Source: Escherichia coli (GTDB taxonomy: Bacteria > Pseudomonadota > Gammaproteobacteria > Enterobacterales > Enterobacteriaceae). From it: DNA of 64,000 nt. The translations under genes and the position numbers were made by a program. The DNA lies in assembly GCF_022846255.1 (NCBI RefSeq), contig NZ_AP025682.1, one strand, 5' to 3'. Shown here piece by piece: positions 1,924-63,209 of the stretch. Positions within the stretch are counted from its first letter, which is position 1. Each line of letters begins with the position of its first letter. The notes beneath the pieces are model-generated. The model saw only the letters and a list, made by a program, of their open reading frames with translations, had not been told where the DNA came from and searched no databases.

Positions 1924-1961
1924 TGAACACGCTGCCCGCGCTGTCGGGCAGCGTTTGAACA

Positions 1962-2783: not shown

Positions 2784-2882
2784 ATCACACTCTGGTGGGT
2801 AATTATGATTATTAAAAGCAAACCCTCATAAATACTATAGACGGGACGGGATGAAAGTGGGAGTAAAATCAGATAACTACGA

Positions 2883-2966: not shown

Positions 2967-3058
2967 ACTACCCTCCGCTAAAGGCGGTGCTAAACGTTAC
3001 CCGCTTAGCACCGTAATTTTCAGGCGCGAGGGGGCGCGCCAGCATTACTGTTGAAAAC

Positions 3059-32162: not shown

Positions 32163-33062
32163 ATGTCGCGAAAAGATGGGGTGTTGGCGCTACTGGTAGT
32201 GGTTGTATGGGGGCTAAATTTTGTGGTCATCAAAGTGGGGCTTCATAACATGCCACCGCTGATGCTGGCCGGTTTGCGCTTTATGCTGGTCGCTTTCCCG
32301 GCCATCTTTTTTGTCGCACGACCGAAAGTACCACTGAATTTGCTGCTGGGGTATGGATTAACCATCAGTTTTGCGCAGTTTGCCTTTCTGTTCTGCGCCA
32401 TTAACTTTGGTATGCCTGCTGGACTGGCTTCGCTGGTGTTACAGGCACAGGCGTTTTTTACTATCGTGCTTGGCGCGTTTACTTTCGGTGAGCGACTGCA
32501 TGGCAAACAATTGGCGGGGATCGCCTTAGCGATTTTTGGCGTACTGGTGTTAATCGAAGATAGTCTGAACGGTCAGCATGTGGCGATGCTCGGCTTTATG
32601 TTGACCCTGGCGGCAGCATTTAGTTGGGCGTGTGGCAACATCTTCAATAAAAAGATCATGTCGCACGCAACGCGTCCGGCGGTGATGTCGCTGGTAATCT
32701 GGAGCGCATTAATCCCAATCATTCCCTTCTTTGTTGCCTCGCTGATTCTCGATGGTTCCGCAACCATGATTCACAGTCTGGTTACTATCGATATGACCAC
32801 CATCTTGTCTCTGATGTATCTGGCATTTGTGGCGACAATCGTTGGTTATGGGATCTGGGGAACACTGCTTGGACGCTATGAAACCTGGCGGGTTGCACCG
32901 TTATCGTTACTGGTGCCTGTAGTTGGACTGGCAAGTGCGGCACTATTGTTGGATGAACGCTTAACGGGTCTGCAATTTTTCGGTGCGGTGCTCATTATGA
33001 CCGGGCTGTATATCAATGTATTTGGCTTGCGGTGGCGTAAAGCGGTAAAGGTCAGAGGCTAA
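32163..33062 (+). CDS. eamA: cysteine/O-acetylserine exporter EamA (YdeD), DMT superfamily
   Basis: 299 aa from MSRKDGVLALLVVVVWGLNFV; two EamA repeats. Confidence 0.9.
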   Translation: MSRKDGVLALLVVVVWGLNFVVIKVGLHNMPPLMLAGLRFMLVAFPAIFFVARPKVPLNLLLGYGLTISFAQFAFLFCAINFGMPAGLASLVLQAQAFFTIVLGAFTFGERLHGKQLAGIALAIFGVLVLIEDSLNGQHVAMLGFMLTLAAAFSWACGNIFNKKIMSHATRPAVMSLVIWSALIPIIPFFVASLILDGSATMIHSLVTIDMTTILSLMYLAFVATIVGYGIWGTLLGRYETWRVAPLSLLVPVVGLASAALLLDERLTGLQFFGAVLIMTGLYINVFGLRWRKAVKVRG

Positions 33063-33067
33063 ACCAT

Positions 33068-33110
33068 ACGCACAGAATGTGATGCCAGCACTCTGTGCGT
33101 CTGCTTTTAT
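33068..33110 (+). terminator. stem-loop terminator after eamA; left edge of accessory island
   Basis: 9-bp stem ACGCACAGA/TCTGTGCGT followed by CTGCTTTTAT. Confidence 0.55.
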
Positions 33111-33805
33111 CGCGGGAAAAAGTACTTTACCTGGAACTCGAAAATATTGCTGTAAAGTAACGAATAATCCAGCGGAATAGAGTTACTATCCACAGCCTGG
33201 GTCTGAATTTTAAGTATGGGATCCCGTGGGCTGATCCGTAAAATACTGGCGATTTCTGGGGTAGGAAAAGTCGGGGAGAAAGTTTCAAAGGTGCCAATGA
33301 TTTTGATCCCGCATTCGTTCTCAATATACGAAAATTTGGATTTTTGCATATGCGATACGGTTAAATCAGGAAAACGTGCCACTGACATCCACGTTTCTTC
33401 TAATTGTGCTGCATTATCCTCAATGAATCGCAGTCTCTTTATGTAATAAACCTGCTCACCAGTCACTAAATTCAGCTCAGTCGCAATAGTAGGAGAAGCA
33501 TCCTGCACTTCAAATTTCATAATCTGACTTCCTGCCTCTTTGCCGCTTTTATGTGCAATTTCACTGAAACTGTTCATGTGATCAATGTGTGCAACAAAAT
33601 TCTTTTTTTGAATGTATGTTCCTGAACCATGCTTTCTGTGAATAATTCCTTCGCCTTCCAGCAGGGATAATGCCTTACGCAGGGTATTACGCGAAACATT
33701 ATAACGAACAGCGAGTTCCGCTTCTGACGGCAACAAATCACCAACATGCCATGAATTGCCATTGATCTCGGATTTAAGTAAGCGGGCAATCTTTTGAAAA
33801 ATCAC
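33107..33805 (-). CDS. GntR/HutC-family transcriptional regulator (HTH plus UTRA effector domain)
   Basis: 232 aa, GTG start; N-terminus IFQKIARLLKSEINGNSWHVGDLLPSEAELAVRYNVSRNTLRKAL is a typical GntR HTH; divergent from PTS operon. Confidence 0.8.
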   Translation of the reverse strand: MIFQKIARLLKSEINGNSWHVGDLLPSEAELAVRYNVSRNTLRKALSLLEGEGIIHRKHGSGTYIQKKNFVAHIDHMNSFSEIAHKSGKEAGSQIMKFEVQDASPTIATELNLVTGEQVYYIKRLRFIEDNAAQLEETWMSVARFPDLTVSHMQKSKFSYIENECGIKIIGTFETFSPTFPTPEIASILRISPRDPILKIQTQAVDSNSIPLDYSLLYSNIFEFQVKYFFPR

Positions 33806-34003
33806 TTTTGCACCTTTTAAGAGCCATTGAAAACAAGGAGTTGAGACCTGATTAGTTTATCGTATGGCCGAGTCGTTTAATTATCACCCTGTTGTTGAAC
33901 AACTTTATTGCTGTATTACTGTGATCAATGTACCAGGACGTGTAGCTACTGTGGGATATGATATTTACACAATGTAGTCTGTTATATACCAGTAAGGAAA
34001 AAT

Positions 34004-34315
34004 ATGAAAAAGATATTGTTAGTTTGCGCTGCGGGCATGTCAACCAGTATGCTGGTTAAACGTATGATTGATCATGCTACCGCTATTTCACTTGAAGTTA
34101 ATATTTCCGCATTGGCGATTGCAGAGGCTAAAGGGAAAATTAAAAATAACGAAGTTGACGTTGTTTTACTTGGTCCGCAAGTTCGCTTTCAGAAACCAGA
34201 GATTGAAGCCGTTGCACAGGGGAAAATGCCTGTAGCCGTTATCGAGATGAAAGACTATGGCACAATGAACGGACAGGCAGTTCTTGAATTTGCGATGAAA
34301 CTACTGCAAGAGTAA
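34004..34315 (+). CDS. PTS EIIB, lactose/cellobiose family
   Basis: 103 aa, MKKILLVCAAGMSTSM with the phosphorylatable Cys; AAGGAAA Shine-Dalgarno. Confidence 0.85.
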   Translation: MKKILLVCAAGMSTSMLVKRMIDHATAISLEVNISALAIAEAKGKIKNNEVDVVLLGPQVRFQKPEIEAVAQGKMPVAVIEMKDYGTMNGQAVLEFAMKLLQE

Positions 34316-34429
34316 GAATCTAATATTATTAAACTATTACCTGAACTAACTTTTCACACATCATAAAATGGATATGGCATACATGCTTTATTGGGATGTA
34401 TAAATATCCAGGACAACAGGTATAAAAAA

Positions 34430-35752
34430 ATGGGATTAATGGCATCATTCGAACGTGGAATGGAACGTTTTCTTGTTCCAGTTGCTATCAAGTTAAACTC
34501 ACAAAAACATGTTGCAGCGGTGAGAGATGGATTCGTTTTTACGTTTCCAATTATCATGGCAAGCTCATTAATTATATTAATTAACTTTGCCATATTATCG
34601 CCCGACGGTTTTATTGCCGGATTACTGCATCTGAACAGCATTTTCCCCAACCTTGAAAAAGCACAAGCTATTTTTACTCCGGTAATGAATGGTTCTGTAA
34701 ATATCATGTCAATTATGATTGCTTTCCTGGTCGCCAGGAATGTGGCGATTAGCTATGAGCAAGATGATCTTTTATGCGGATTAACGGCAATAGGAGCATT
34801 TTTTATTGTTTATACCCCATACCAGATGATAGATGGGCAGGCATTCCTGACGACCAAATATCTCGGCGCGCAGGGGTTGTTTGTTGCTGTTATCGTTGCA
34901 TTGATCACCAGTGAAATATTTTGTCGCTTAGCTCGAAACCCCAAAATCACCATAACGATGCCGGCAGCTGTACCTCCTGCGGTAGCGCGTTCATTTAAAG
35001 TTTTATTGCCAATATTTTTTGTCATGGTGTTCTTTTCCGCACTTAATTATTGCCTGACATTGATATCCCCGGCAGGATTAAATGATCTCATTTACACATT
35101 AATCCAGACGCCGCTCAAACATATGGGAACGAATATCTTTGCGGTAATTATCCTGGGGGCTGTGGGTAATTTCCTCTGGGTGCTGGGGATCCACGGACCT
35201 AATACAACGTCGGCAATTCGAGAAACCGTTTTTTCTGAGGCTAATCTGGAGAATCTCTCCTGGGCCGCTCAACACGGCACTACCTGGGGCGCGCCATATC
35301 CGATTACCTGGACTTCTATTAATGATGCATTCGCCAACTGCGGCGGTTCAGGTATGACGTTGGGGTTATTGTTGGCTATTTTTATCGCTTCTAAGCGTGC
35401 GGAATACCGTGATCTGGCAAAAATGTCATTTATCCCCGGTATTTTCAATATCAATGAACCGATAATGTTCGGCCTTCCTATTGTACTTAACCCCATCATG
35501 ATGGTGCCGTTTATTATGGTTCCCATTGTTAACTGTGCCATTGGTTACTTCTTTGTTTCGATGGAAATTATTCCACCGGTTGCTTATGCCGTGCCCTGGA
35601 CTACGCCCGGACCTTTAATTGCTTTCCTCGGAACCGGGGGAAACTGGCTGGCATTACTGGTTGGTTTTTTATGTTTAGGTGTGGCGACAATGATCTATTT
35701 ACCTTTTGTTATCGCCGCCAACAAAGTCAATAACATGACAACTAACGGATAA
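34430..35752 (+). CDS. PTS EIIC permease, lactose/cellobiose family
   Basis: About 440 aa multi-TM ORF; start uncertain (ATG 34430 or 34439; track ORF begins at TTG 34391). Confidence 0.85.
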   Translation: MGLMASFERGMERFLVPVAIKLNSQKHVAAVRDGFVFTFPIIMASSLIILINFAILSPDGFIAGLLHLNSIFPNLEKAQAIFTPVMNGSVNIMSIMIAFLVARNVAISYEQDDLLCGLTAIGAFFIVYTPYQMIDGQAFLTTKYLGAQGLFVAVIVALITSEIFCRLARNPKITITMPAAVPPAVARSFKVLLPIFFVMVFFSALNYCLTLISPAGLNDLIYTLIQTPLKHMGTNIFAVIILGAVGNFLWVLGIHGPNTTSAIRETVFSEANLENLSWAAQHGTTWGAPYPITWTSINDAFANCGGSGMTLGLLLAIFIASKRAEYRDLAKMSFIPGIFNINEPIMFGLPIVLNPIMMVPFIMVPIVNCAIGYFFVSMEIIPPVAYAVPWTTPGPLIAFLGTGGNWLALLVGFLCLGVATMIYLPFVIAANKVNNMTTNG

Positions 35753-35779
35753 TTCCATTTACCCAGGAAGGAGATTGTG

Positions 35780-36091
35780 ATGTTTGCAGATGAAGAACTT
35801 GTTATGGAGTTACTGATCAACGCGGGACAGGCTCGTTCTGATGCGATGGAAGCCATACGTTGTGCCGGGCAAAAAGACTGGCAGGGCGCAACTAAACTAA
35901 TGGCCAGCTCTGAATCTGCCTGTCTTCAGGCGCATAAGATTCAGACCGCGTTAATTAGTCAGGATGAAGGCTGTGGCAAAATAGAAGTTAATTTAATTCT
36001 GATACATGCACAGGATCATTTGATGAATGCAATATTATGCCAGGATTTAGCCAGGGAAATTATTTCATTAAGAAAAGAGCTCCATGCCTGA
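35780..36091 (+). CDS. PTS EIIA, lactose/cellobiose family
   Basis: 103 aa, conserved His in HAQDHLM context; AGGAAGGAG Shine-Dalgarno 7 nt upstream of ATG. Confidence 0.85.
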   Translation: MFADEELVMELLINAGQARSDAMEAIRCAGQKDWQGATKLMASSESACLQAHKIQTALISQDEGCGKIEVNLILIHAQDHLMNAILCQDLAREIISLRKELHA

Positions 36092-36142
36092 TTTTTTCTC
36101 CAGTGCGATATCTGGAGGAAATTACTACACTCTTAAGGATAA

Positions 36143-39287
<3,145 letters not shown>

Positions 39288-39312
39288 GACTTCAGGAAGA
39301 TATTACGGAAAT

Positions 39313-39338
39313 GTCAGGCTCTGTGATCAGAGCCTGAC
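39313..39338 (-). terminator. stem-loop terminator of marRAB; right edge of accessory island
   Basis: 11-bp perfect stem GTCAGGCTCTG/CAGAGCCTGAC with 4-nt loop; U-rich on the minus-strand side. Confidence 0.6.
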
Positions 39339-39343
39339 AATAA

Positions 39344-39562
39344 CTACATAGCGTGTTGATTGTAATAGGGCACGCCGAGCGCATCCGACTTATCACTGCC
39401 AGTACCCATGTGATTTAAATCAAACGGTGGTTGTTCCTGCGATGTGGGAACAACCACGACATTGCCACAGGAAGTAACAACCGGCTGCGTGGTTTGTTCC
39501 GCAACGCCCTGCGCAGAAAAGAGAATAAGCGCAGTTGCTATTGCGGATAAAAGTGGTTTCAT
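39344..39562 (-). CDS. marB: periplasmic protein MarB
   Basis: 72 aa with signal peptide, recognised as MarB; downstream of marA. Confidence 0.9.
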   Translation of the reverse strand: MKPLLSAIATALILFSAQGVAEQTTQPVVTSCGNVVVVPTSQEQPPFDLNHMGTGSDKSDALGVPYYNQHAM

Positions 39563-39593
39563 GATTGCCTCAGTGACGTTGTCACGTTATCAA

Positions 39594-39977
39594 CTAGTTG
39601 TTGTAATGATTTAATGGATGTAAAAAACGCGATTCACCTTGCATATTGGTCATCCGGTATTTATGCGGCGGAACATCAAAGTAATTTTTGAAGGTTCGGG
39701 TCAGAGTTTGTTGGGACTCGAAGCCATATCGTTCTGCCAGATAGAGTATCGGCTCGTTACTTTCCTTCAGCTTTTGCGCGATTTCCGTCATCTTACGGCT
39801 ACGGATGTATTGACCTAATGAATGACCGGTTTCTTTTTTAAACATCCGTTGCAGGTGCCATTTGGAGTAACCCGAACGCTCTGACACTTTCTCCAGTGAC
39901 AGTGGCGATTCCAGGTTGTCCTCGATCCAGTCCAAAATGCTATGAATGGTAATAGCGTCAGTATTGCGTCTGGACAT
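39594..39977 (-). CDS. marA: AraC/XylS-family multiple antibiotic resistance activator MarA
   Basis: 127 aa from [31 protein letters not shown]; track ORF has two extra N-terminal codons. Confidence 0.93.
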
Positions 39978-39997
39978 CGTCATACCTCTTTTTTCGT

Positions 39998-40432
39998 TTA
40001 CGGCAGGACTTTCTTAAGCAAATGCTCAAGTGTTGCCACTTCGTCCGCCGTCAGGTTTTTTGTTAATTCTTGATGCAGGTCCTGGCCAACTAATTGATGG
40101 CATTGTTCACATATTGCCGCGCCGCTGGTGGTAAGTTTTACCAGTACGCCGCGCTTATCATTCGGGTTCGGCAACCTTTCCACCCAGCCTTTACAGACCA
40201 GGCGATCCAGCATACGGGTCAGTGCCCCCAGGTCGACCGACAACACTTTTTTCAGTTCAACCGGAGTAATACACGCCGCGCAGCGGATAGAGCAGAGCAC
40301 CTTAAACTGTGCCGCGGTAATATCCAGCGGAGACAGATACTCGTTAAGCAGGCGATCTTTCTTCTGATTAACCATATGGATTAAGCGACCCAATGGAATA
40401 ATTTCATTGAACAGATCGCTGGTACTTTTCAC
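39998..40432 (-). CDS. marR: MarR repressor
   Basis: 144 aa, GTG start, winged-helix MarR family; sequence recognised. Confidence 0.93.
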
Positions 40433-40437
40433 ATTAG

Positions 40438-40484
40438 TTGCCCTGGCAAGTAATTAGTTGCAGGGGATAATATTGCCCAGGCAA
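40438..40484 (-). promoter_or_regulatory. marO: MarR operator sites II (40438-40449) and I (40473-40484) with -10 TATTAT and -35 TTGACT of the marRAB promoter
   Basis: Palindromes TTGCCCTGGCAA and TTGCCCAGGCAA; site I sits in the 17-nt spacer between -35 (40490-40495) and -10 (40467-40472), site II between promoter and the GTG start. Confidence 0.7.
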
Positions 40485-40510
40485 GTATAAGTCAAATGAA
40501 TGAATTGACC

Positions 40511-40530
40511 GATGCCACGTTTTGCTAAAT
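40511..40530 (-). promoter_or_regulatory. marbox (MarA/SoxS/Rob binding site) upstream of marRAB promoter
   Basis: Minus-strand ATTTAGCAAAACGTGGCATC matches the mar promoter marbox from memory. Confidence 0.65.
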
Positions 40531-40643
40531 CGGTTCAAGTTTTGGTCAATGCGATGCAAGGTTAGCTAAAGAGTGACACTTTATCCTTGTTTACCCCTTA
40601 TACTTTTCGCTGATAAACCAGATACACAGGATAACAACCACCA

Positions 40644-41309
40644 ATGTTAGATTTGTTTAAAGCAATAGGCCTGGGGCTGGTGGTGTTACTGCCGTTAGCT
40701 AACCCATTAACAACTGTCGCGTTATTTCTTGGCCTGGCAGGCAACATGAACAGTGCCGAACGTAATCGTCAGTCGTTGATGGCCTCGGTGTACGTATTTG
40801 CCATCATGATGGTGGCGTATTACGCCGGGCAACTGGTGATGGATACATTTGGCATTTCGATTCCCGGTCTGCGAATTGCAGGCGGCTTAATCGTCGCGTT
40901 TATCGGTTTTCGGATGCTCTTTCCGCAACAGAAAGCGATTGATTCACCGGAAGCGAAAAGCAAGTCGGAAGAGCTGGAAGATGAACCCAGTGCCAATATT
41001 GCTTTTGTACCACTGGCAATGCCAAGTACCGCCGGTCCGGGAACCATTGCGATGATTATTAGCTCGGCCTCCACAGTGCGTCAGAGTTCAACCTTCGCTG
41101 ATTGGGTACTGATGGTTGCGCCGCCGCTGATCTTTTTCCTGGTGGCGGTTATTTTGTGGGGAAGTCTACGCAGCTCTGGCGCAATTATGCGGCTGGTGGG
41201 CAAGGGGGGTATTGAAGCGATCTCCCGTCTGATGGGATTCCTGCTGGTATGTATGGGCGTGCAGTTTATTATTAACGGCATCCTGGAAATCATTAAAACG
41301 TATCATTAA
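40644..41309 (+). CDS. marC: inner membrane protein MarC (UPF0056)
   Basis: 221 aa multi-TM, divergent from marRAB. Confidence 0.9.
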
Positions 41310-41333
41310 AAAAGGCCCGAATGGGCCTTTCAA

Positions 41334-42524
41334 CTATTGCGTCTGTTCTTCGAGTGTCACTGGCCAGCGGCGAAAAATGATGATTGACCATATTAACGCA
41401 GCAAAAGCAGGCACCGCGCCCACATAACCAATCATCGACATTGACCAGTGCAGACTCACCTGATTACCTACCAACGCACCCGCGCCGATTCCAATATTAA
41501 ATATCCCGGAGAATAGCGCCATCGCGACGTCGGTGGCATCTGGTGCCAGCGCCAGCACTTTAACCTGCATACCAAGCCCGATGATCATCATCGCGATCCC
41601 CCAGAAAATACTCAGCACCCCGAGGTGTATTTCACTGTTCGCCGCAGGTAGCAGCAGTGCCAGGCACACCAGCAATAGCGCAATCGCTGTACTCACCAAC
41701 GCAGACGCATACTGATTACCCAGTTTACCGAAAATCACGCTGCCAATAATGCCCGCACCACCGAGTAATAACAGTAATGCCGTGGCAAAGTTGGCGCTGA
41801 ATCCCGCAATGTTTTGTACAAAAGGCTCGATATAGCTGTATGTCGTGTAATGGGCGGTGACAACCACCACAGTTAACAAATAAATGCTCATCAATGCCGG
41901 GCGGCGGAACAATAGCGGGAGGCTTTTCAATGAACCGGAATGCTCACTGGGCAGCAAGGGAAGTAACTTAATCAGGCACAAAAGGGTAATAAGCGCCCCG
42001 ATACCAATCGCGAAGAAGGTCATTCGCCAGCCAAAATACTGCCCCACAATGCGCCCGAGAGGTAAACCTAATACCATTGCCAGTGCTGTACCGGTGGCAA
42101 TTAAACTCAATGCCTGTGCTCGCTTCCCGGCCGGAGCCATACGGATCGCCAGAGACGCCGTAATCGACCAGAAAATCGCATGTGCAAAAGCCACACCAAT
42201 GCGACTGATCACCAGAACGGTAAAACTCCACGATAAAAACGACAGTACGTGGCTGGCAATAAACACCACAAACAGGCAGATCAGTAATTTGCGGCGTTCA
42301 ACCTGGCTGGTCATTAACATAAACGGCAATGACATTAGCGCCACTACCCATGCATAAATTGTCAACATGATGCCGACCTGAGCGGTTTGCATGTGAAAAC
42401 TATGCGCAATGTCAGAGAGCAGGCCAACAGGGACAAATTCGGTGGTATTGAAGATAAAGGCGGCGACTGCCAGCGTAACGACCCGTAGCCACGCTACTTT
42501 GCGGGAAACAGTGTTTGTTGTCAT
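41334..42524 (-). CDS. sotB: MFS sugar efflux transporter SotB (YdeA)
   Basis: 396 aa, 12-TM MFS. Confidence 0.88.
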
Positions 42525-42862
42525 AACAGATTATCGGGTGAGTTGCGAAAAAGTGATGAAATGATCTTAAAACGGTTAATGATGTGAATACAATGCATTT
42601 GTGATCTGGATCGCATTTCCATCTCTCTGACGGTTGTTCTGTCACGCATCAGAGAGTTGTTAACATCACATTTTAATGACGATCAGGAAGGGGGCCTGTT
42701 CTTCTTTTACTTGAGGTGCAATATTACGAACGGGAAAATCATCAGGAAGAGATATGTAATTGCTGATGCTTACTGGCGTAACCATATTTGCCCCATATAG
42801 TCATAAGTCATCGGAACATCACTATATAGAGCATATTAGCCGTATGAACTATCAAAAATAGC

Positions 42863-43744
42863 TCATTGGTAACCCTGTTTTGCCGAGTCAGGCGCATCCA
42901 GCAGTTGAATAAATGCCTCAAGCGGACGCGTTTTCGCACCACGACGCCAGACCAGCCAGGTTGTTAACCAACGCCATTGCTCAGCTAACGGCCACGCTTC
43001 AACCTGGTGATGCCCCGGCATACTTTCCAGCATTGAGCGTGGAATAAGCGCAATGCCTGCTCCTGCGACCACACAGGCCAACATCCCGTGATAAGACTCC
43101 ATCTCGTGAATAGTTCCCGGAGCGGCACCGTCAGCATGAAACCAGCTTTCGAAGTGGCGACGATACGAACAATTGGCGCGGAAGGCATAAATGTTACTGC
43201 CATTCACCTGACTGGCACGGGTTACTGGCGCATGTCCTTGTGGCGTGACGATCATCAGTTCCTCGCGGTATACCGGTATCCCGTCAATGGCAGTATGGTT
43301 AATGGGCCCATCAATAAATGCCGCATTCAGTTTTCCCTCCAGCACACCTTCCAGCATAGTGCCGGAAGGGCCGGTGGAAAGTGAAAACTGAATTTTGGGA
43401 TAACGACGGTTAAATTCCGCCAGCGTGGCCGGAATGCGCACTGCAGCGGTGCTTTCCAGCGATCCCAGAGAAAATAAACCTTGCGGCTCATCGCCAGCGA
43501 CAACGCTCCGCGCTTCATCCACTAACGTGAGAATTTGTTGGCTATAGCGTAAAAAGTTATGCCCGGCAGGCGAGAGACGTAAACGCTGATTCTCGCGAAT
43601 AAACAGATCAACCCCTAGTTCTGTTTCCAGCTGACGTAGACGGGTAGTGAGATTCGACGGCACGCGATGCACTTTTGCTGCAGCCTGGGTAATGCTGCCA
43701 GCTTCGGCAACCGCGTTGAACATCTCCAGTTGGGTCAGATCCAT
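42863..43744 (-). CDS. yneJ: LysR-family regulator YneJ
   Basis: 293 aa, N-terminal HTH; divergent from sad. Confidence 0.85.
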
Positions 43745-50932: not shown

Positions 50933-51691
50933 TTACTCCGTACGGCGGGCAACAATAAACAGACGCGGAAATGCCAGCAATATCTGTCCGTTCTCCTGGA
51001 GGGGATATTGCTCTTCCAGCATCTGATGGTAGCGCGTAAGAAAATGCTGCTGTTCGCTCTCGGTCAGATCCTGTAACCACGGACGTAATCCAGTGGCGGT
51101 CACCCAATCGATAATCGCCTGGTGCGACGGCATCTGGTGATAGTAAGTGGTTCGCCAGATATCGACCTCACATCCGGCTTCACTCAGAATATCGTAGTAA
51201 GCATGAACGCCAGCCAGCGGCTCACGCCCGCGATCCGGGTAGTTTTGTTCCCAGGCAACTTCGCGCATGAGCACATGGGTCGGCTCCAGCCAGTTATCTG
51301 GCATCTGTACTGCCAGCACGCCCAGCGGACTGAGTAACGAAACCAGATGAGGAAACAATTCGTAGTGGTCGGGCAGCCATTGCAGCGAGGCATTAGCAAA
51401 AATCAGATCGAGTGCCTGTTCCGGTTGCCAGTTGCGGATATCTGCTTCCACAAACAGGCAGTCTGGCAAAGCACTGCGCGCTTCAGCAATCATCGCCGGA
51501 GATGAGTCGATGCCCGTTATCCTGGCAGCAGGCCAACGTTGGTGTAGAAGGGCGGTGCTGTTACCTGGGCCACAGCCAAGATCGGCAATGTATTCGATAT
51601 TCTCCAGCGGCACTCTGGCAAGCAGCTCCACCGCCGGACGCGATCGTTCAGCAGCGAAGTGCAGATATAAAGAGGGGTTCCAGTCAGACAT
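50933..51691 (-). CDS. tam: trans-aconitate 2-methyltransferase Tam
   Basis: 252 aa, SAM-dependent methyltransferase motif LGCGPGN. Confidence 0.88.
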
Positions 51692-51747
51692 ATTTTTACT
51701 CCCGTCAGCGCGTTACCCCAAGTGTAGATAAAACTGATAAATTCGCC

Positions 51748-52038
51748 TCACGGCATCAACCCATTGAACAGACGTTTTTTACGCGGCCCGGTCATTAAAG
51801 ATTCCAGTTTTGCGACACAGGTTTTGTAGTGGGGCGTGGTTTTATGGAATGCCACTGCGTCTTCATCTTTATAGGCTTCGTAGATATAAAAGCGCGAATT
51901 CACTTCCGGGTCCTGTAAGACATCGAAGCGCAAATTGCCTTCTTCCTGTACAGAGCCCAGGTGGTTCTGGCGAAAAACTTCGATAAACTCGTCAACCTTG
52001 TCTTCATGAACGTTAATTTCAACCAGTGTGACGTGCAT
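51748..52038 (-). CDS. lsrG: AI-2 degradation enzyme LsrG
   Basis: 96 aa from [18 protein letters not shown]; AAGGAGAAG Shine-Dalgarno upstream. Confidence 0.9.
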
Positions 52039-52060
52039 GTTTCTTCTCCTTAATCCGCAG

Positions 52061-52936
52061 TTACTGTTTTTCACTCAGATAGAGTTCATATGCCCGATCA
52101 GCCGTTTCGTTATGGTGTACCACCGCCTGTACGGCTTTCATCATCGCCACCGGATGGTCAGACTGGAAAATATTACGCCCCATATCCACACCAGAAGCGC
52201 CCTGATCGATAGCCTGCCAGCACATTTCCAGCGCCTCGCGCTCCGGTAATTTTTTACCGCCAGCAATGACAATGGGTACCGGACATCCGGCAACAATCCG
52301 TTCAAAACCTTTATCGACATAATAAGTTTTGATAATCTGCGCCCCCATTTCAGCGGCGATTCGAGTCGCGAGCGAGAAATAACGTTGGTCGCGCACCATA
52401 TCTTTGCCCACGCCAGTGACGGCCATGGTCGGCATTCCCGCTTTCATTCCGGCATCGACCAGCTGAATAATATTTTTGATCGACTGATGTTCATATTCGC
52501 TGCCGATATAAACCTGCGCCGCCACCGCGCAACTGTTCAGGCGCACGGCATCATCCATCGATAACGCCACGGCTTCATTACTTAATTCCGCCAGAATAGA
52601 GTTCGCACCTGACGCCCGCAGTACCACCGGCTTATTGGTCGCAGGGGGGACTACGCTGCGCAAAATACCGCGCGTACACATTAATACATCGGCATGTTCA
52701 AACAGCGGGGCGATATTTATATCAATGCGTTCAAGTCCGGTAGTCGGCCCCTGAAAATAACCATGATCAAAGGCCAGCATCACGGTTTTACCCGTTTTCG
52801 GATTAAATATCCGCGATAAGCGTGACTGCATTCCCCAATCCAGTGCACCGCAACCTTTCAGGGTAAAAGGGATATTTTTTTGCGGTTGATCGGTACGAAA
52901 ATCTTTACCATCTTTAATATCGTCTAAATCTGCCAT
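52061..52936 (-). CDS. lsrF: phospho-AI-2 thiolase/aldolase-family enzyme LsrF
   Basis: 291 aa, DeoC/class I aldolase family. Confidence 0.9.
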
Positions 52937-52962
52937 AACGTACTCCGGTTAAGTAATGCACA

Positions 52963-53985
52963 TCAGAAATCGTATTTGCCGATATTCTCTTTGTTGAATA
53001 TCACGCGCTCCGGTAACAGTACGATGCCATTACCATCCGCTTCGTAGTCATAGCCCTGAACGCTGTTTGGCGAGACTTCCACCTGACCTACGCCCTGAAT
53101 ATCCAGCTTGTCGCCCGTTTTCATTGATCCTTTTTTCAATAATGCATCCGCGACATAAACTGATATTTTGCCTTGCTGAACCACATCCCACAGGCCAAAT
53201 TCTTTCACCGTGCCGCGTTCCACATATGGACGCATCACGTTTGGCGTACTGAATCCGACAATCGCAACTTTGTCATTTTTCAGGTTTTCTGCGGCTTGTG
53301 CGGCAGCGGGCAGGGCATTGGCATCGGGGGCGATAATGGCGTCGAGATCGCTATAGGCTTTTAATATTCCTTCTGCGGTTTGTAACGATTTAGTGGCATC
53401 GTTATAGCCAAACTGCGTAGTGACAATTTCCCAGCCTGGATGCTCTTTGGCGATTTTCGCTTTCGCTTCTTTCACCCACTGGTTTTGGTCCGTAACGGTG
53501 GGGCTTGAGTAGAAAAACGCGACTTTGGCTTTGTCTTTATTCACCTGACGCGCCGCCATATCCACCAACATACCTCCCAACTGGGCGGGCGTTCCCTGAT
53601 TAATGTAGTAAGAGCGGCACTCCGGTTTAGTATCAGAGTCCCAGGTCAGCACTCTCACACCACGTTGCATGGCGCGTTTCAGTGCCGGACACAAGCCATC
53701 AGGCGAAACCGCAGAAACGATAATGGCGTTATACCCCTGATTGACGAAGTTATTAATCAACTGTACCTGACCAGAAACACTGGGTTCTGTCGGCCCGTCG
53801 TAGGTCACATCAACGCCCAACTCTTTACCCGCTTGTTGTGCGCCGTTGCCACCGCTGGTAAAAAATCCCACGCCAACCAGTTTGGGAATAAATGCAATAC
53901 GCTCTGCCGCCTGCACATTCATAGAGATTACGGCAATGCCAAGCGCGCTAAGTAAGGCGATTTTCTTAAAGCGATGAAGTGTCAT
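52963..53985 (-). CDS. lsrB: AI-2 periplasmic binding protein LsrB
   Basis: 340 aa with signal peptide. Confidence 0.92.
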
Positions 53986-53996
53986 GAAGATATCCT

Positions 53997-54989
53997 TTAT
54001 GGCAATGGGTTATTGGCCCGACGCGCCAGCCACTCTTTAATTTGCTGGCGATGCAGGCTAACGGAACGACCTACGACAACGACGATAAGTAGCGCACCGG
54101 AAAGGGCGCTGGACACCTGATTTGGCACTCCTGCCATTTGCAAACCTTGTTGCAAATATCCCACTAATAAAACCGCTATGGCGGTGCCGATAATGGAACC
54201 AGAACCACCATAAATATTGGCACCGCCGAGCACTACGGCGGTGATGGCGGGCATCAGAAACGACGCACCGAGATCGGAACGTGCTGAACCAAAATACGAT
54301 ACCAGCAGCACAGCGGCGACCGCAGACGCCAGCCCCGTCATGGCATAGAGCGCACACAAGGTGCGGTTAACTGGAATCGCGCTATAAACCGCCACACGCG
54401 GGCTTTGCCCAATTAAAAACACGTTACGTCCGGCATGGGTTTTATGCAGCCAGAGCCAGAAAACGAGGAGACATATCAGGAAGATAATCAGCGGAACGGG
54501 GAGCCCCAGCACATCCAGGTTAGCGAAATCTGTAAACGCCATCGGGAATCCACCAATACCTTCGTACCCCGTCGCTCCGGCCATCCCGGAAAGCAGCAGG
54601 GCGCTTCCGGCAAACAGATACAGCGTGCCAAGCGTAATCACCAGCGGGTTAACTTTGGTATAGATAATTAATCCGGCGTTGATCAGCCCGCACAATGCGC
54701 CGAGCAGTAAGGTCAGAAGAATCGCCAGCGGCATCGGCACACCACTTTGAAACAGTACGCCCAATGCAATGGCGCAGAGGCCGATGGTCGAACCAAACGA
54801 AATATCGATCCCACCACTGACAATCACCATCGTCAGCGGTAGGGCGACAATGCCAATGCAGATAAAGTCACTGGTGCTGAACAGCAACATATTGAGATCT
54901 AACATCCGCGGGTTAATTGCACCAAATGCGACAATCTCAATAACGAGCAGTGCGGCAAGAGCCAGTTCCCAACCGTAGCGAATACGCAT
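53997..54989 (-). CDS. lsrD: AI-2 ABC transporter permease LsrD
   Basis: 330 aa multi-TM permease. Confidence 0.9.
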
Positions 54990-56017
54990 TATGCAGCCTC
55001 CCGTTTTTTACCTGACGAAGCGGGTTTAACGGATGGCGGAGGCGTCATAAAGCGGGCATATTTTTGCCGCCGCAGATTACGTTCCAGCGCACAACGCAGG
55101 CGTCCATCAAACACCAGCACCGCCAGCAGAACCAGGCCCGCGATAAAATCGTTCCACCATGCCGGAATGCGCAACAGCACCAGTACACTATCGATCTGCG
55201 TCAGGAACCATGCGCCGAGTACCGCACCGATGATCGCACCGGAACCGCCGAGCAAACTAATGCCGCCCAGCACGCAGGCTGCAATTGCTTTCATCTCCAG
55301 CCCGGTACCGGTCTGGTTGGGGATAAAACCAATCTGCGAAGCAAACACAATTCCCGCCACTGCCGCCATGCAGCCGTTCAACGAAAATGCCACAATGCGA
55401 ATGGCTTCCGTACGAACGCCCAGTTGACGAGCGCCCTGTAAATTATCGCCCGTGGCATAAAAACTGCGTCCAAACGCCGTCTTCGCCAGCAGCCAGGCCA
55501 TAAATGCCACCAGAATTATCGTCAACCAACCAATCGCGGAAACGCCAAACAGCAGCGGGGCAGAGAGTTGTTTCAGTTCGGCGGGTAATCCCTCAATCCA
55601 TTTACCGCCAGTCCACAGCAACATGATGCCTCTGTACAACCCTAACGAGCCAAGGGTGGCGACAATGGCAGGGATCTTTAGCCACGCGACCAGGACACCG
55701 TTGAAAAATCCCGCGAGCAAACCAAGCAGTAGAGTCGCGACACAAGCAACAGGTAGTGAATACCCCGCGTTCAGTAACATCCCCAACAGCACCGCGCACA
55801 TTCCGGTAATCGAACCCACTGAAACATCAATATTGCGCGTAAGCATTACCAGCGTCGCGCCCATTGCCAGCAGGATCAGGATTTGCGCGCTGCTATAAAC
55901 CATGGTCAGCGTTTGCACACTTAAATACTGACGGTCGAGAAAACCGGGTAATACAAACAGCAGCACCACCGCCAGCAGTGCCGTGATTTCACGGTTGTTC
56001 TGGATAAACTTCAGCAT
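54989..56017 (-). CDS. lsrC: AI-2 ABC transporter permease LsrC
   Basis: 342 aa multi-TM permease. Confidence 0.9.
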
Positions 56018-57546
56018 GACGCCTCCTGACGCTGACTATCTCCGAAGGCAACGCGCATAATGGTCTCGACATTAATATCGCGCCCGGTCAGTGCAGAGTG
56101 GGCAATTTCGCCCTGATGCATCACATACACGCGATCTGCCATCAGTTCGATCTCTTCGAGATCAGAGGAGATAAGCAGCACAGCCACATTCTGTGCGGCG
56201 ATGCTGCGCAACAGTTGGTAGATATCATTACGCGCCGAGACATCCACGCCGCGCGTCGGCTCATCGACAATCAATACTTGCGGCGAAGCTTCCAGGCATT
56301 TGGCAATCAGGATTTTTTGCTGGTTGCCACCGGATAATGTCCGTGCAGCTTGTTCCGGTTGGTTAAATTTAATATTCAGCGCCCGACGATATCGTTCCAG
56401 GGTGGCATTATCTTTCGCGGTTTTCGCCCAGAATCCACGAAGGTTATGAGTAAGGGCGCAGACGTTCCAGGCCAGCGAAGCATCGAGATTCAGTCCGGAT
56501 GACTGGCGATCTTCCGGCAGATAAACCAGACCGCGCAGTAAACGTTCTCCGGTGGATAATCTATTGATATCTTTACCATTCAGCATAATGCGTCCGCCAC
56601 GCAAAGTACGCAGACCATAGAGCGTCTCGGCCAGTTCTGTGCGTCCGGCTCCCACCAGTCCAGCCAGGCCCAGAATTTCTCCGGCATTGAGCGTCAGGCT
56701 GACATTCCTGAAACCTTCGCCGGTCAGATTTTCCAGTGTCAGCACCGGCGTTCCGGCGGCATGTTGTGGGCGGTTGCCAGGTAATTCCAGCCATAATTTT
56801 TGGCTGGCAGAGAGCGATTTTTCCCGTAGCGCTGGCGTGATGGCCTGAATAATGTCGTCGGTAGACAGTTCGCTGGTTTTGCCGCTTAAGGCGATGGTTC
56901 CGTCGCGCATCACGCTAATCCGATCGGCAATCTGGCGAATTTCCGGCAGCTTATGCGAGATAAAAACAATACCCACGCCAGTAGCAAGCAGCTCTTGCAA
57001 GCGACTAAACAAGCGTTCGGTTTCCGCAGGGGTAAGCGAGGCGGTAGGTTCATCGAGGATCAGAATCTGCGAGTCGCGCATCAGCCCACGGAGGATTTCC
57101 ACCATTTGGCGATCGGCGACATCCAGCGATCCTGCCAGACTATGCAGATCAAACTGGCAGCCCAGCGCCACCAGCAAGTTATTCATTTTCTGTATGGAGA
57201 GTTGTTTTTTTGCCAGACCAAACAGGATGTTTTCTTTTATCGACAGGCTTGGAAAAAGCAGCGGTTCCTGGGGAACGAGATAAATGCCCAGCTGATGAGC
57301 ATGAACTGGCGTTAATCTGGTGTAGTTGTTGCCCCCAATCTCCAGCGTACCGCTATCAGCAGGGGTAATACCGGCAATAATCTTCATTAACGTCGATTTA
57401 CCGGCACCATTGCCGCCGAGCAGTGCGTGGACCTCCCCCTGATGCAACGTAAAATCGATGCCTTTCAGGACATTAACCCCTGAATACTGTTTATAAACCG
57501 AGCGGGCGCAAAGTAGCGGTAACGCGCGGGTATCACTCGTTTGCAT
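56011..57546 (-). CDS. lsrA: AI-2 ABC transporter ATP-binding protein LsrA
   Basis: 511 aa with two ABC cassettes (Walker [10 protein letters not shown] and GLVGAGRTE). Confidence 0.92.
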
Positions 57547-57710
57547 ATTTCCCCCGTTCAGTTTTGCAGGTGAGTTTTGAACAAATGTATTTCTGCTTTT
57601 AATTTGTTCATAACCTTAGGTGGACATTGCACATATTTCCGACGAATAGATCACAATTTATGCTATTTTGATTTTCACGGTTGCGTTTGTTCATGCTCGT
57701 AGAGTCAAAC

Positions 57711-57726
57711 TGTGGTTGCTATCACA
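57711..57726. promoter_or_regulatory. CRP-site-like sequence in the lsrA/lsrR divergent intergenic region
   Basis: TGTGG-ttgcta-TCACA, near match to TGTGA-N6-TCACA. Confidence 0.45.
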
Positions 57727-57794
57727 GATATAAATGCGCAAGAACTGAACAATTGCATTAAAGATTTAAATATGTTCAAAGTGAAGAATGAATT

Positions 57795-58748
57795 ATGACA
57801 ATCAACGATTCGGTAATTTCAGAACAGGGAATGTGTGAAGAAGAACAGGTCGCGCGGATTGCGTGGTTTTACTACCACGACGGGCTGACCCAGAGTGAGA
57901 TCAGCGATCGTCTCGGCCTGACCCGTTTGAAAGTGTCGCGATTACTGGAGAAAGGGCATCAATCCGGCATTATTCGCGTACAGATTAATTCACGCTTTGA
58001 AGGCTGTCTGGAATATGAAACACAATTACGTCGTCAGTTTTCGCTGCAACATGTCCGGGTGATCCCAGGGCTTGCGGATGCTGATGTCGGCGGGCGACTA
58101 GGGATAGGCGCGGCGCATATGTTGATGAGTTTACTTCAACCACAACAGATGCTGGCGATTGGTTTTGGCGAGGCAACCATGAATACGCTGCAACGCTTAA
58201 GTGGTTTTATTTCGTCACAGCAAATTCGCCTGGTCACGCTCTCCGGTGGAGTCGGTTCTTATATGACGGGTATCGGGCAGCTTAACGCGGCGTGCAGTGT
58301 GAATATTATTCCGGCTCCGTTGCGGGCATCCTCCGCTGACATTGCCCGTACGCTAAAAAATGAAAATTGCGTCAAAGATGTTCTGCTAGCCGCGCAAGCA
58401 GCGGATGTGGCGATTGTCGGCATTGGGGCTGTGAGTCAACAAGACGACGCAACAATCATTCGCTCCGGCTATATCAGCCAGGGCGAACAGTTAATGATTG
58501 GTCGAAAAGGGGCGGTTGGCGACATTTTAGGCTACTTTTTTGATGCAAAAGGTGACGTTGTCACGGATATCAAAATACATAACGAACTGATTGGCTTACC
58601 TTTAAGCGCGCTGAAGACCATACCCGTCCGGGTTGGCGTGGCAGGGGGAGAAAATAAAGCCGAAGCAATTGCCGCTGCAATGAAAGGCGGTTATATCAAC
58701 GCACTGGTTACCGATCAGGACACAGCAGCGGCGATTTTACGTAGTTAA
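57795..58748 (+). CDS. lsrR: lsr operon repressor LsrR (SorC family)
   Basis: 317 aa, N-terminal HTH. Confidence 0.92.
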
Positions 58749-58826
58749 ATTTGCATGACCTTGTTACCGGGAATGATGGAGAACGTATAGAGGAACAGAC
58801 AGAACGCATAAGCCGAGGATAATCTA

Positions 58827-60419
58827 ATGGCTCGACTCTTTACCCCTTCAGAATCAAAGTACTACCTGATGGCGCTGGATGCAGGCACCGGAAGTATTAG
58901 GGCTGTGATATTCGACCTGGAAGGCAATCAAATAGCCGTGGGACAGGCGGAGTGGCGGCACCTGGCAGTACCGGACGTTCCTGGTTCTATGGAATTTGAT
59001 CTCAACAAAAACTGGCAACTGGCGTGTGAGTGTATGCGCCAGGCGCTGCACAACGCCGGCATAGCCCCGGAGTATATCGCTGCCGTTTCGGCATGTTCGA
59101 TGCGCGAAGGCATTGTTTTATATAACAATGAAGGAACACCGATCTGGGCCTGCGCCAATGTGGATGCCAGAGCGGCACGCGAAGTTAGCGAACTTAAAGA
59201 ACTGCACAACAATACCTTTGAAAACGAAGTTTATCGAGCGACCGGGCAAACGCTGGCTTTAAGCGCCATCCCCAGATTACTTTGGCTGGCGCACCATCGT
59301 TCCGATATTTACCGTCAGGCATCAACCATCACCATGATCAGCGACTGGCTGGCCTATATGCTCAGCGGCGAACTTGCGGTGGATCCCTCTAACGCTGGCA
59401 CCACGGGACTTCTTGATCTAACCACCCGTGACTGGAAACCTGCATTGCTGGATATGGCTGGCCTGCGTGCCGATATTCTTTCTCCTGTCAAAGAAACCGG
59501 CACATTGCTGGGTGTGGTAAGTTCACAAGCGGCGGAACTCTGCGGTCTGAAGGCGGGCACTCCGGTGGTCGTTGGAGGAGGTGACGTGCAGCTTGGTTGC
59601 CTGGGGTTAGGCGTTGTACGTCCGGCACAAACCGCGGTTCTTGGCGGCACATTCTGGCAGCAAGTTGTAAACTTAGCCGCGCCGGTGACAGACCCAGAAA
59701 TGAACGTGCGCGTTAATCCCCATGTTATTCCTGGCATGGTACAAGCTGAATCTATAAGCTTTTTTACCGGACTCACCATGCGCTGGTTCCGCGATGCTTT
59801 CTGTGCCGAAGAAAAACTGATTGCCGAACGTTTAGGCATCGACACCTATACGCTGCTGGAAGAGATGGCCAGTCGGGTGCCGCCTGGGTCGTGGGGCGTA
59901 ATGCCGATATTCTCCGACAGAATGCGCTTTAAAACCTGGTATCACGCTGCGCCTTCCTTTATTAACTTGTCCATTGACCCGGATAAATGTAACAAAGCGA
60001 CATTGTTCCGTGCGCTGGAAGAAAATGCGGCGATTGTATCAGCGTGTAACTTACAGCAAATTGCTGATTTCTCGAATATTCATCCCACCTCGCTGGTTTT
60101 TGCTGGCGGAGGTTCAAAAGGGAAATTATGGAGTCAAATTCTCGCTGATGTCTCGGGATTACCCGTCAATATTCCGGTGGTCAAAGAAGCCACTGCATTA
60201 GGATGTGCCATTGCAGCTGGCGTCGGTGCCGGAATTTTTTCATCAATGGCAGAAACCGGAGAACGCCTGGTTCGCTGGGAACGGACGCACACACCAGACC
60301 CGGAAAAGCATGAACTTTATCAGGATTCACGCGATAAGTGGCAGGCAGTTTATCAGGATCAGCTGGGGCTGGTTGATCATGGACTGACGACGTCGTTATG
60401 GAAAGCGCCAGGGTTATAG
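58827..60419 (+). CDS. lsrK: autoinducer-2 kinase LsrK (FGGY family)
   Basis: 530 aa, FGGY carbohydrate kinase family. Confidence 0.92.
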
Positions 60420-60502
60420 TTTCATTGACAGCCACACCATGATGACCGTGGCTGTTAGTTTTTGAGTATTGGTATTCTCATTTCCCTTCTTTTAGAGCTG
60501 GC

Positions 60503-62800: not shown

Positions 62801-62808
62801 ACCGTATA

Positions 62809-62842
62809 AGCCGCATGTCGAAGATGCATGCGGCTTAATATT
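62809..62842 (+). terminator. stem-loop after the autotransporter remnant
   Basis: 9-bp stem AGCCGCATG/CATGCGGCT followed by TAATATT. Confidence 0.5.
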
Positions 62843-62875
62843 GCCGACTTCAAACGACTTTTAAATCCTCCTTTT

Positions 62876-62921
62876 TATCCGCGATCGCGGATATCACAGT
62901 GTTTATCCCGTAGAGCGGATA
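62876..62921. promoter_or_regulatory. two HipB operator palindromes (TATCC-N8-GGATA) upstream of hipB
   Basis: TATCCgcgatcgcGGATA (62876-62893) and TATCCcgtagagcGGATA (62904-62921), exact matches to the HipB operator consensus. Confidence 0.65.
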
Positions 62922-62942
62922 AATATGCTGTGGACGTATGAC

Positions 62943-63209
62943 ATGATGAGCTTTCAGAAGATCTATAGCCCAACGCAATTAGCGAATGCAATGAAACTGG
63001 TTCGTCAGCAAAATGGCTGGACGCAGAGCGAGCTGGCGAAAAAAATCGGTATTAAGCAGGCGACAATTTCCAATTTCGAAAACAACCCTGACAATACCAC
63101 GCTCACGACATTTTTTAAGATTTTACAGTCGCTTGAACTCTCAATGACGCTATGCGACACGAAAAATGCCTCGCCAGAATCAACAGAACAGCAAGATCTG
63201 GAGTGGTAA
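62943..63209 (+). CDS. hipB: antitoxin HipB (Xre-family HTH)
   Basis: 88 aa from MMSFQKIYSPTQLANAMKLV; track ORF starts 6 codons earlier. Confidence 0.9.
   Translation: MMSFQKIYSPTQLANAMKLVRQQNGWTQSELAKKIGIKQATISNFENNPDNTTLTTFFKILQSLELSMTLCDTKNASPESTEQQDLEW

What the first reader, a model, noticed from the sequence alone, without database searches (positions are those of the whole stretch)
40433..40540. Complete marO control region is intact
MarR sites I and II, the -35/-10 hexamers with 17-nt spacing, and the upstream marbox are all readable and positioned as described for K-12, so the accessory island next door has not disturbed mar regulation.
Basis: partly seen in the sequence, partly recalled or inferred. 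Interest (0 to 1): 0.2.

Follow-up and report, generated by a model that had tools for sequence, protein, structure and literature searches.

The report
Ordinary wild-type marRAB promoter-operator (marO)
This stretch is the normal, unmutated control region of the E. coli multiple-antibiotic-resistance operon marRAB, identical to the laboratory strain K-12 and to most sequenced E. coli, so it is correct but ordinary.

Summary
Confirmed and ordinary. Window 40433-40540 is the core of marO, read on the minus strand. It lies between marR (40432..39998, GTG start) and the divergent marC (40644..41309).

It matches K-12 MG1655 at 108 of 108 bases, with no indel. All claimed elements are present:
- marbox, 40531..40512
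- -35 TTGACT, 17-nt spacer, -10 TATTAT
- MarR palindromes TTGCCTGGGCAA (site I) and TTGCCAGGGCAA (site II)

The palindrome pattern occurs only at these two places in 64 kb (0.14 expected).

No known derepressing lesion is present. The recurrent 20-bp site II duplication is absent, and marR is full length. MarR carries only G103S and Y137H, and MarA only S127N. These are common lineage polymorphisms.

Caveats:
- The span is not quite the "complete" marO. It cuts the Fis accessory site (40547..40533), which holds one of three intergenic SNPs against K-12. That SNP is at a non-consensus position and is the majority allele.
- The 6.3-kb PTS/porin/glucosidase island lies at the 3' end of the operon. 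Its junction is 2 bp after the marB stop, where it replaces K-12's hairpin. About 47% of E. coli genomes carry the same junction.

Already known; low interest.

The parts
40433..40455 (-). MarR site II region. The palindrome TTGCCAGGGCAA is at 40449..40438. The region lies between the transcription start and the marR GTG and covers an AGGG Shine-Dalgarno-like motif at 40446..40443.
   Evidence: Sequence; pattern hit; identical to K-12. Only one copy of TACTTGCCAGGGCAACTAAT is present, so the derepressing 20-bp duplication reported in PMC8757474 and PMC3920692 is absent. The footprint limits are recalled from Martin & Rosner 1995, which is not held in the library.
40459..40460 (-). Inferred marRAB transcription start
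   Evidence: Inferred from the -10 position, 7-8 nt upstream. It is also consistent with the recalled statement that the marbox is centred at -61.5 (Martin & Rosner 1997), which places +1 at 40460. Not measured here.
40467..40472 (-). -10 hexamer TATTAT
   Evidence: Promoter scan. TAnTAT sits at the same position in 32 of 32 enterobacterial marO sequences.
40473..40484 (-). MarR site I palindrome TTGCCTGGGCAA, inside the 17-nt spacer. The footprint is about 40489..40469.
   Evidence: PMC3920692 places site I between -35 and -10 and reports that its deletion gives an MDR phenotype.
40490..40495 (-). -35 hexamer TTGACT
   Evidence: The hexamer is TTGACT or TTGACA with a 17-nt spacer in 32 of 32 enterobacterial sequences.
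40512..40531 (-). marbox GATTTAGCAAAACGTGGCAT, the binding site for the activators MarA, SoxS and Rob. It lies 16 bp upstream of -35.
   Evidence: 1 mismatch to the consensus. It is an exact match to the mar DNA used in MarA studies (PMC11633057, PMC8279559). The core TTTAGC-N5-GTG is conserved across genera at 16 bp from -35 in 25 of 31 sequences.
40533..40547 (-). Fis accessory site candidate GACCAAAACTTGAAC. K-12 has GAACAAAACTTGAAC. Half of it lies outside the finding's span.
   Evidence: It matches GNNYRNNWNNYRNNC. PMC7355843 describes a Fis site within marO upstream of the marbox. The SNP at 40545 is at an N position. The C allele is in 6 of 8 E. coli sequences aligned, including the window. 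The exact 15-mer assignment is my inference.
40545..40545 (-). SNP against K-12 (A to C on the mar sense strand), within the Fis 15-mer
40562..40562 (-). SNP against K-12 (G to A), in the marC-proximal half of the intergenic region
   Evidence: The allele is in 4 of 8 E. coli sequences aligned, including the window.
40617..40617 (-). SNP against K-12 (G to T), 27 bp upstream of the marC ATG
   Evidence: In the 8-sequence panel only the window has it. The exact 211-bp allele is nevertheless common in the collection.
39998..40432 (-). marR, 144 aa, GTG start, carrying G103S and Y137H against K-12
   Evidence: NCBIfam MarR equivalog, 320 bits against a cutoff of 240. The DNA is identical to strain 95-3322, whose MarR is WP_000843419.1; O157:H7, O145 and other strains carry the same protein.
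39594..39977 (-). marA, 127 aa, S127N
   Evidence: PMC7082582 reports S127N as the most common MarA substitution.
39344..39562 (-). marB, 72 aa, five substitutions against K-12
40644..41309 (+). marC, divergent neighbour, with a protein identical to K-12
33053..39341 (.). The 'accessory island': GntR regulator, PTS IIB/IIC/IIA, carbohydrate porin and 6-phospho-beta-glucosidase. It lies between eamA and marB and is absent from K-12.
   Evidence: BLAST against K-12, annotation of strain 95-3322, and the junction found in 2555 of 5426 genomes
39313..39338 (-). Hairpin GTCAGGCTCTG-ATCA-CAGAGCCTGAC, just downstream of the marB stop. It takes the place of K-12's GCCCCGA-CATC-TCGGGGC.
   Evidence: It is not called a terminator by the T-run scan.

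Best explanation
This is the wild-type operator-promoter (marO) of the marRAB operon of an E. coli strain whose mar locus matches the uropathogenic/B2-type allele.

The mechanism below comes from the K-12 literature and is inferred to apply here because the sequence is identical.

1. RNA polymerase with sigma-70 uses the -35 TTGACT and -10 TATTAT hexamers, separated by 17 nt.
2. MarR dimers bind two near-identical palindromes. Site I lies in the spacer and blocks polymerase. Site II lies between the start site and the GTG, over the ribosome-binding site. Together they keep the operon repressed.
3. Salicylate and other ligands release MarR.
4. MarA, or SoxS or Rob, then binds the marbox 16 bp upstream of -35 and activates transcription. 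Fis bound just upstream gives a further boost.

Nothing in the sequence suggests derepression. The neighbouring island lies at the other end of the operon.
For: - 108/108 identity to K-12 with no indel.
- The promoter was found independently by the consensus scan.
- The MarR palindrome occurs only at these two sites in 64 kb, against 0.14 expected.
- The marbox is an exact match to published mar DNA (PMC11633057, PMC8279559).
- marR, marA, marB and marC are full length and pass the NCBIfam equivalog cutoffs. MarR matches PDB MarR entries end to end.
- The only MarR changes are G103S and Y137H, and the only MarA change is S127N. G103S/Y137H show no association with resistance (PMC4317672). All three are the commonest substitutions in field isolates (PMC7082582).
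- The 20-bp site II duplication is absent (against PMC8757474).
- The 108-bp core is 100% identical in 28 of 40 evenly sampled genomes and at least 99% identical in 5279 of 5418 records.
- Across about 15 enterobacterial genera, -35, -10, the 17-nt spacer, the marbox core and its 16-bp offset are all conserved.
Against: - Function was not measured. The original footprinting papers (Martin & Rosner 1995, 1997; Martin et al. 1996) are not held, so exact footprint edges, the start site and the Fis-site assignment rest on my recollection plus secondary sources.
- Three SNPs against K-12 lie in the intergenic region outside the span, one of them in the presumed Fis site.
- The 3' flank of the operon differs from K-12.
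- In the cross-genus set the two palindromes were the search pattern, so their conservation there is by construction.
Confidence: 0.95

Rival explanations
1. The core is intact, but the regulatory set-point differs measurably from K-12. The candidate causes are lineage-specific differences outside the core: the Fis-site SNP at 40545, the SNPs at 40562 and 40617, MarR G103S/Y137H, MarA S127N, a 1-bp insertion in the marR-marA spacer at 39995, and the different hairpin after marB.
For: All these differences are real. Fis is reported to give about a two-fold boost to activated mar transcription (PMC7355843), so a change in its site could matter in principle.
Against: - The 40545 change is at a non-consensus position, and C is the majority allele, with K-12 the minority.
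- MarR G103S/Y137H occur in fully susceptible isolates and show no association with resistance (PMC4317672).
- The 1-bp insertion lies upstream of the marA Shine-Dalgarno sequence and does not change its spacing to the ATG.
- The whole allele is shared by roughly a fifth of sequenced E. coli.
Confidence: 0.1
2. The match is a chance resemblance, or a relic that no longer functions as a control region.
For: The degenerate marbox and Fis consensus patterns are individually no more frequent than chance.
Against: Identity to K-12 is 100% over 108 bp. The region sits between intact marC and marR. The sequence is nearly invariant across 5,400 genomes. The architecture is conserved across genera.
Confidence: 0.01

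Closest known systems
E. coli K-12 MG1655 marO (marRp promoter-operator, NC_000913.3 about 1618909-1619119)
   Same: The 108-bp core is identical base for base. This covers the marbox, -35, the 17-nt spacer with MarR site I, -10, site II and the GTG start. Gene order is the same: marC divergent, then marR-marA-marB.
   Different: There are three SNPs in the rest of the 211-bp intergenic region (40545, 40562, 40617). MarR has G103S/Y137H, MarA has S127N and MarB has 5 substitutions. There is a 1-bp insertion between marR and marA. K-12 has eamA directly after marB, whereas here a 6.3-kb island intervenes and the post-marB hairpin differs.
marO of B2/ExPEC-type E. coli (for example strain 95-3322, NZ_CP027461.1)
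   Same: 99.9% identity over 1401 bp. The single difference is a synonymous change in marB at 39362. The island is the same and the MarR protein is the same, WP_000843419.1.
   Different: None in marO. Within the island, this window has a frameshifted porin, while 95-3322 has a frameshifted glucosidase.
marO of other Enterobacteriaceae (Salmonella, Citrobacter, Enterobacter, Raoultella, Atlantibacter and others)
   Same: Two TTGCCNGGGCAA palindromes separated by 23-24 nt, -35 TTGACW, a 17-nt spacer, -10 TAnTAT, a marbox core TTTAGC-N5-GTG 15-16 bp upstream of -35, and a GTG/TTG start immediately after site II.
   Different: Sequence upstream of the marbox, including the Fis-site region, is conserved only within Escherichia. 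Two genomes have an extra 10 bp between the marbox and -35.

Membership tests
E. coli marO (marRAB promoter-operator) | Located in the intergenic region between divergent marC and marR, upstream of marR-marA-marB | tested here: met
   ORFs, NCBIfam equivalog hits above cutoff for all four proteins, and RefSeq annotation of near-identical genomes
E. coli marO (marRAB promoter-operator) | Sigma-70 promoter with -35 TTGACT, a 17-nt spacer and -10 TATTAT | tested here: met
   (10 of 12 matches, spacer 17); identical to K-12
E. coli marO (marRAB promoter-operator) | Two MarR operator sites. Site I lies between -35 and -10. Site II lies next to the marR start codon. | tested here: met
   Palindromes at 40484..40473 and 40449..40438. 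Positions agree with PMC3920692 and PMC8614764.
E. coli marO (marRAB promoter-operator) | 20-bp marbox for MarA/SoxS/Rob upstream of -35 | tested here: met
   40531..40512, an exact match to published mar marbox DNA (PMC11633057, PMC8279559), 16 bp from -35
E. coli marO (marRAB promoter-operator) | Fis accessory site adjacent to and upstream of the marbox | tested here: met
   The 15-mer at 40547..40533 keeps every consensus position, with one SNP against K-12 at an N position. The existence of the site is from PMC7355843. The exact 15-mer is my assignment, and the consensus alone is not above chance.
E. coli marO (marRAB promoter-operator) | Absence of known derepressing lesions: site I deletion, 20-bp site II duplication, marR truncation or inactivating substitutions | tested here: met
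   No indel in marO. marR is full length with only G103S/Y137H, judged neutral in PMC4317672.
E. coli marO (marRAB promoter-operator) | Actual binding by MarR, MarA and Fis, and salicylate-inducible repression in this strain | not testable with these tools
   Needs EMSA or footprinting and reporter or qRT-PCR assays

The most novel reading that the evidence does not exclude
The variants around an invariant core might give B2-type E. coli a slightly different basal or induced mar expression level than K-12. The candidates are the Fis-site A/C polymorphism at -85, the two marC-proximal SNPs, and the hairpin after marB that was swapped at the island junction. If so, presence or absence of the island would mark two regulatory states of the operon's 3' end.
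Probability: 0.08. Interest if true: 0.15.

Novelty: already known. Interest (0 to 1): 0.04.

Why it matters
It matters little beyond annotation quality. The result shows that this strain carries the standard, repressed-by-default mar control region and no chromosomal Mar-type derepression mutation. Any multidrug phenotype would therefore need another explanation.

It also shows that MarR G103S/Y137H and MarA S127N, often listed as 'resistance mutations' by automated pipelines, travel here with a fully wild-type operator as a common lineage allele.

Tried and rejected
- I tried to read the primary footprinting papers and reviews: PMC41713, PMC177928, PMC179692, PMC134658, PMC164072 and PMC8779632. 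None is held. Footprint edges, the -61.5 and -81 centres and the transcription start are therefore from memory plus secondary sources.
- Full-text searches for papers giving site I/II detail returned only one usable secondary source.
- A search for the CpxR footprint on marO found nothing usable.
- PMC11672702 was listed as containing 'marO', but the held part does not.
- The Fis and marbox consensus scans are not significant on their own.
- The terminator scan found no canonical intrinsic terminator after marB.
- Rfam found no RNA family in 33000-43000.
- I considered whether the single difference from the best database match might be a private mutation in marR or marO. It is a synonymous change in marB.
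- I considered whether the plus-strand promoter-like hit CTGGCA-17-GATAAT (40443-40471) is the marC promoter. The number of hits in the region is at chance level, so I did not pursue it.

Full report
**What is there**

The window is E. coli chromosome. The finding sits in the 211-bp gap between marC (plus strand, 40644..41309) and marR (minus strand, 40432..39998, GTG start). marA (39977..39594) and marB (39562..39344) follow on the minus strand. All four proteins are full length and score above NCBI's equivalog cutoffs for MarR, MarA, MarB and MarC. MarR aligns end to end with the PDB MarR entries.

The finding gave no strand. Every element it names reads on the minus strand.

**Checking the observation**

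Reading the minus strand gives, from upstream to downstream:

| Element | Sequence | Coordinates |
|---|---|---|
| marbox | GATTTAGCAAAACGTGGCAT | 40531..40512 |
| gap | 16 bp | 40511..40496 |
| -35 | TTGACT | 40495..40490 |
| spacer | 17 nt | 40489..40473 |
| MarR site I palindrome | TTGCCTGGGCAA | 40484..40473 |
| -10 | TATTAT | 40472..40467 |
| MarR site II palindrome | TTGCCAGGGCAA | 40449..40438 |
| marR start | GTG | 40432 |

- The generic promoter scan picked out the same hexamers with a 17-nt spacer, scoring 10 of 12.
- The pattern TTGCCNNGGCAA occurs twice in the 64-kb window, both times here, against 0.14 expected.
- The degenerate marbox consensus gives one hit in the window, at this position. 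One hit is what chance would give (1.66 expected), so that pattern is not evidence by itself.

**Comparison with K-12**

A global alignment of marC..marB against MG1655 (NC_000913.3) gives 43 differences. None lies in 40433-40540, and there is no indel in the intergenic region. The span is therefore 108/108 identical to K-12, and all spacings are the K-12 spacings.

The 30-bp mar DNA used in MarA structural and biophysical work (GAACCGATTTAGCAAAACGTGGCATCGGTC; PMC11633057, PMC8279559) is present exactly at 40536..40507. Reporter constructs for PmarR described as having two MarR sites span the same interval (PMC8614764). Secondary literature places site I between -35 and -10 and site II at the translation start (PMC3920692).

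The original footprinting papers are not in the library. The following are therefore my recollection and an inference from the -10 position, not tool results:
- the exact footprint edges (about 40489..40469 and about 40455..40433)
- the marbox centre at -61.5
- the Fis centre near -81
- the start site at 40459/40460

**Derepressing mutations**

The recurrent 20-bp duplication of site II (TACTTGCCAGGGCAACTAAT; PMC8757474, PMC3920692) is absent, and no site I deletion is present.

- MarR differs from K-12 only by G103S and Y137H.
- MarA differs only by S127N.
- MarB has five substitutions.
- MarC is identical.

G103S/Y137H occur in fully susceptible isolates and show no association with resistance (PMC4317672). 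G103S+Y137H and S127N are the commonest MarR and MarA substitutions in field isolates and travel together (PMC7082582).

The marR DNA is identical to that of strain 95-3322, whose MarR is WP_000843419.1. The same protein accession is annotated in O157:H7, O145, VCSW5 and RM9387. This is a widespread natural allele, not a mutant.

A 1-bp insertion between marR and marA (39995) lies upstream of the marA Shine-Dalgarno sequence. It is shared with 95-3322.

**How ordinary it is**

- The 108-bp core is 100% identical in 28 of 40 evenly sampled records and at least 99% identical in 5279 of 5418.
- The whole 211-bp allele is exactly shared by about a fifth of genomes (6 of 30 evenly sampled).
- The 1401-bp marB-marO stretch is at least 99% identical in 1038 records.
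- In an 8-sequence alignment (the window, K-12 and six other E. coli strains), everything from the marbox to the GTG is invariant. The one exception is a single base between the marbox and -35 in an O145 strain.

One scan of species-representative genomes for the two palindromes returned 76 stretches. I took 31 from Enterobacteriaceae, covering about 15 genera, and compared them together with the window. The two palindromes were the search pattern, so their conservation is by construction. The following features were not selected for:
- -35 is TTGACT or TTGACA in 32 of 32 sequences.
- The spacer is 17 nt in 32 of 32.
- -10 is TAnTAT in 32 of 32.
- A GTG or TTG start follows directly after site II.
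- The marbox core TTTAGC-N5-GTG lies 16 bp from -35 in 25 of 31, 15 bp in 4, and 26 bp in 2.

This is the expected phylogenetic footprint of a well-known control region.

First, 'complete'. Fis is described as binding within marO, upstream of the marbox (PMC7355843). The only Fis-consensus 15-mer abutting the marbox is 40547..40533 (the consensus alone is below chance). The finding's end at 40540 cuts through it.

One of the three intergenic SNPs against K-12 falls in it. At 40545, K-12 has A and the window has C. The position is unconstrained in the consensus, and C is the majority allele (6 of 8 sequences); K-12 carries the minority base. The other two SNPs (40562 and 40617) lie in the marC-proximal half.

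Second, the island. Comparison with K-12 places it at 33053..39341. It encodes a GntR regulator, PTS IIB/IIC/IIA, a carbohydrate porin and a 6-phospho-beta-glucosidase. It lies between eamA and the 3' end of marB, about 1.1 kb from marO, so it was never likely to touch the 5' control region.

Homology to K-12 stops 2 bp after the marB stop codon. K-12's hairpin GCCCCGA-CATC-TCGGGGC is replaced by GTCAGGCTCTG-ATCA-CAGAGCCTGAC at 39338..39313. The same junction is present in 2555 of 5426 complete genomes, and the rest break at the same point. This is a common two-state polymorphism. Whether the 3' end of the transcript differs is untested.

**Mechanism**

The sequence shows that the sites are present and are identical to K-12. 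The mechanism is established for K-12 and inferred to apply here.

1. MarR dimers on site I (in the spacer) and site II (over the ribosome-binding region) repress the sigma-70 promoter.
2. Ligands such as salicylate release MarR.
3. MarA, SoxS or Rob at the marbox then activates transcription, with Fis as an accessory factor.

**Verdict**

The feature is already known and matches the modal E. coli sequence, so interest is low.

The only reading with any novelty is that the flanking polymorphisms and the swapped 3' hairpin shift the expression set-point slightly. I give this about 8%.

Noticed in passing
window 36680-36700 (porin gene 36146..37824): The island's carbohydrate porin gene carries a 5-bp insertion at 36691-36695. 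A GACCT/CTGAC unit is present three times instead of twice (ttgacctgacctgaccttaa), which shifts the frame after about 182 codons. None of the 2515 E. coli genomes that carry this gene shows the insertion (best match 97.4% over 191 bp, which equals the 5-bp gap). It is a private pseudogenisation or a sequence error.
   Followed up: yes
window 37843-39287; L002 18544-19988: The island's 6-phospho-beta-glucosidase is intact in the window. In the closest genome (strain 95-3322) it is frameshifted by a different 5-bp insertion. The island is therefore decaying independently in different strains.
   Followed up: partly
window 39313-39343: Homology to K-12 ends 2 bp after the marB stop. A perfect 11-bp-stem hairpin (GTCAGGCTCTG-ATCA-CAGAGCCTGAC) replaces K-12's GC hairpin between marB and the convergent gene. 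Neither is followed by a clear T-run.
   Followed up: partly
window 40516-40570: Three marbox-like 14-mers lie 20 and 21 bp apart: CACGTTTTGCTAAA (the true marbox), CAAGTTTTGGTCAA (overlapping the Fis 15-mer) and CAAGGTTAGCTAAA. The 40562 SNP makes the third copy more marbox-like than it is in K-12. Significance is unknown.
   Followed up: no
window 40580-40594 (minus strand): GTAAACAAGGATAAA resembles the CpxR box GTAAA-N5-GTAAA. I recall a report that CpxR activates marRAB but could not find the paper in the library. The sequence is invariant in 6 of 8 E. coli sequences aligned.
   Followed up: no
L017 (Enterobacter sp. R1) and L059 (Buttiauxella MAG), marO regions: These two genomes have exactly 10 extra bp, one helical turn, between the marbox and -35 (26 bp instead of 16). 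The marbox therefore stays on the same face of the helix.
   Followed up: partly
window 51500-64000: The right end of the window (lsr autoinducer-2 operon and an autotransporter) has no match of 99% or better in 5426 complete E. coli genomes. The best is 98.2%, in 5 pieces spanning 16.1 kb of subject for 12.5 kb of query. By contrast, 29-52 kb is 99.4% identical to strain 95-3322, which has different genes at that point. This suggests a mosaic or an under-sampled lineage.
   Followed up: partly
window 42691-42701: About 1 kb holding K-12's yneK is missing between ydeA and ptrR. The closest genome annotates only a 102-bp yneK remnant there.
   Followed up: no
window 40443-40471 (plus strand): A weak promoter-like match, CTGGCA-17-GATAAT, points toward marC and overlaps the MarR sites on the opposite strand. 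The number of such hits in the region is at chance level.
   Followed up: no
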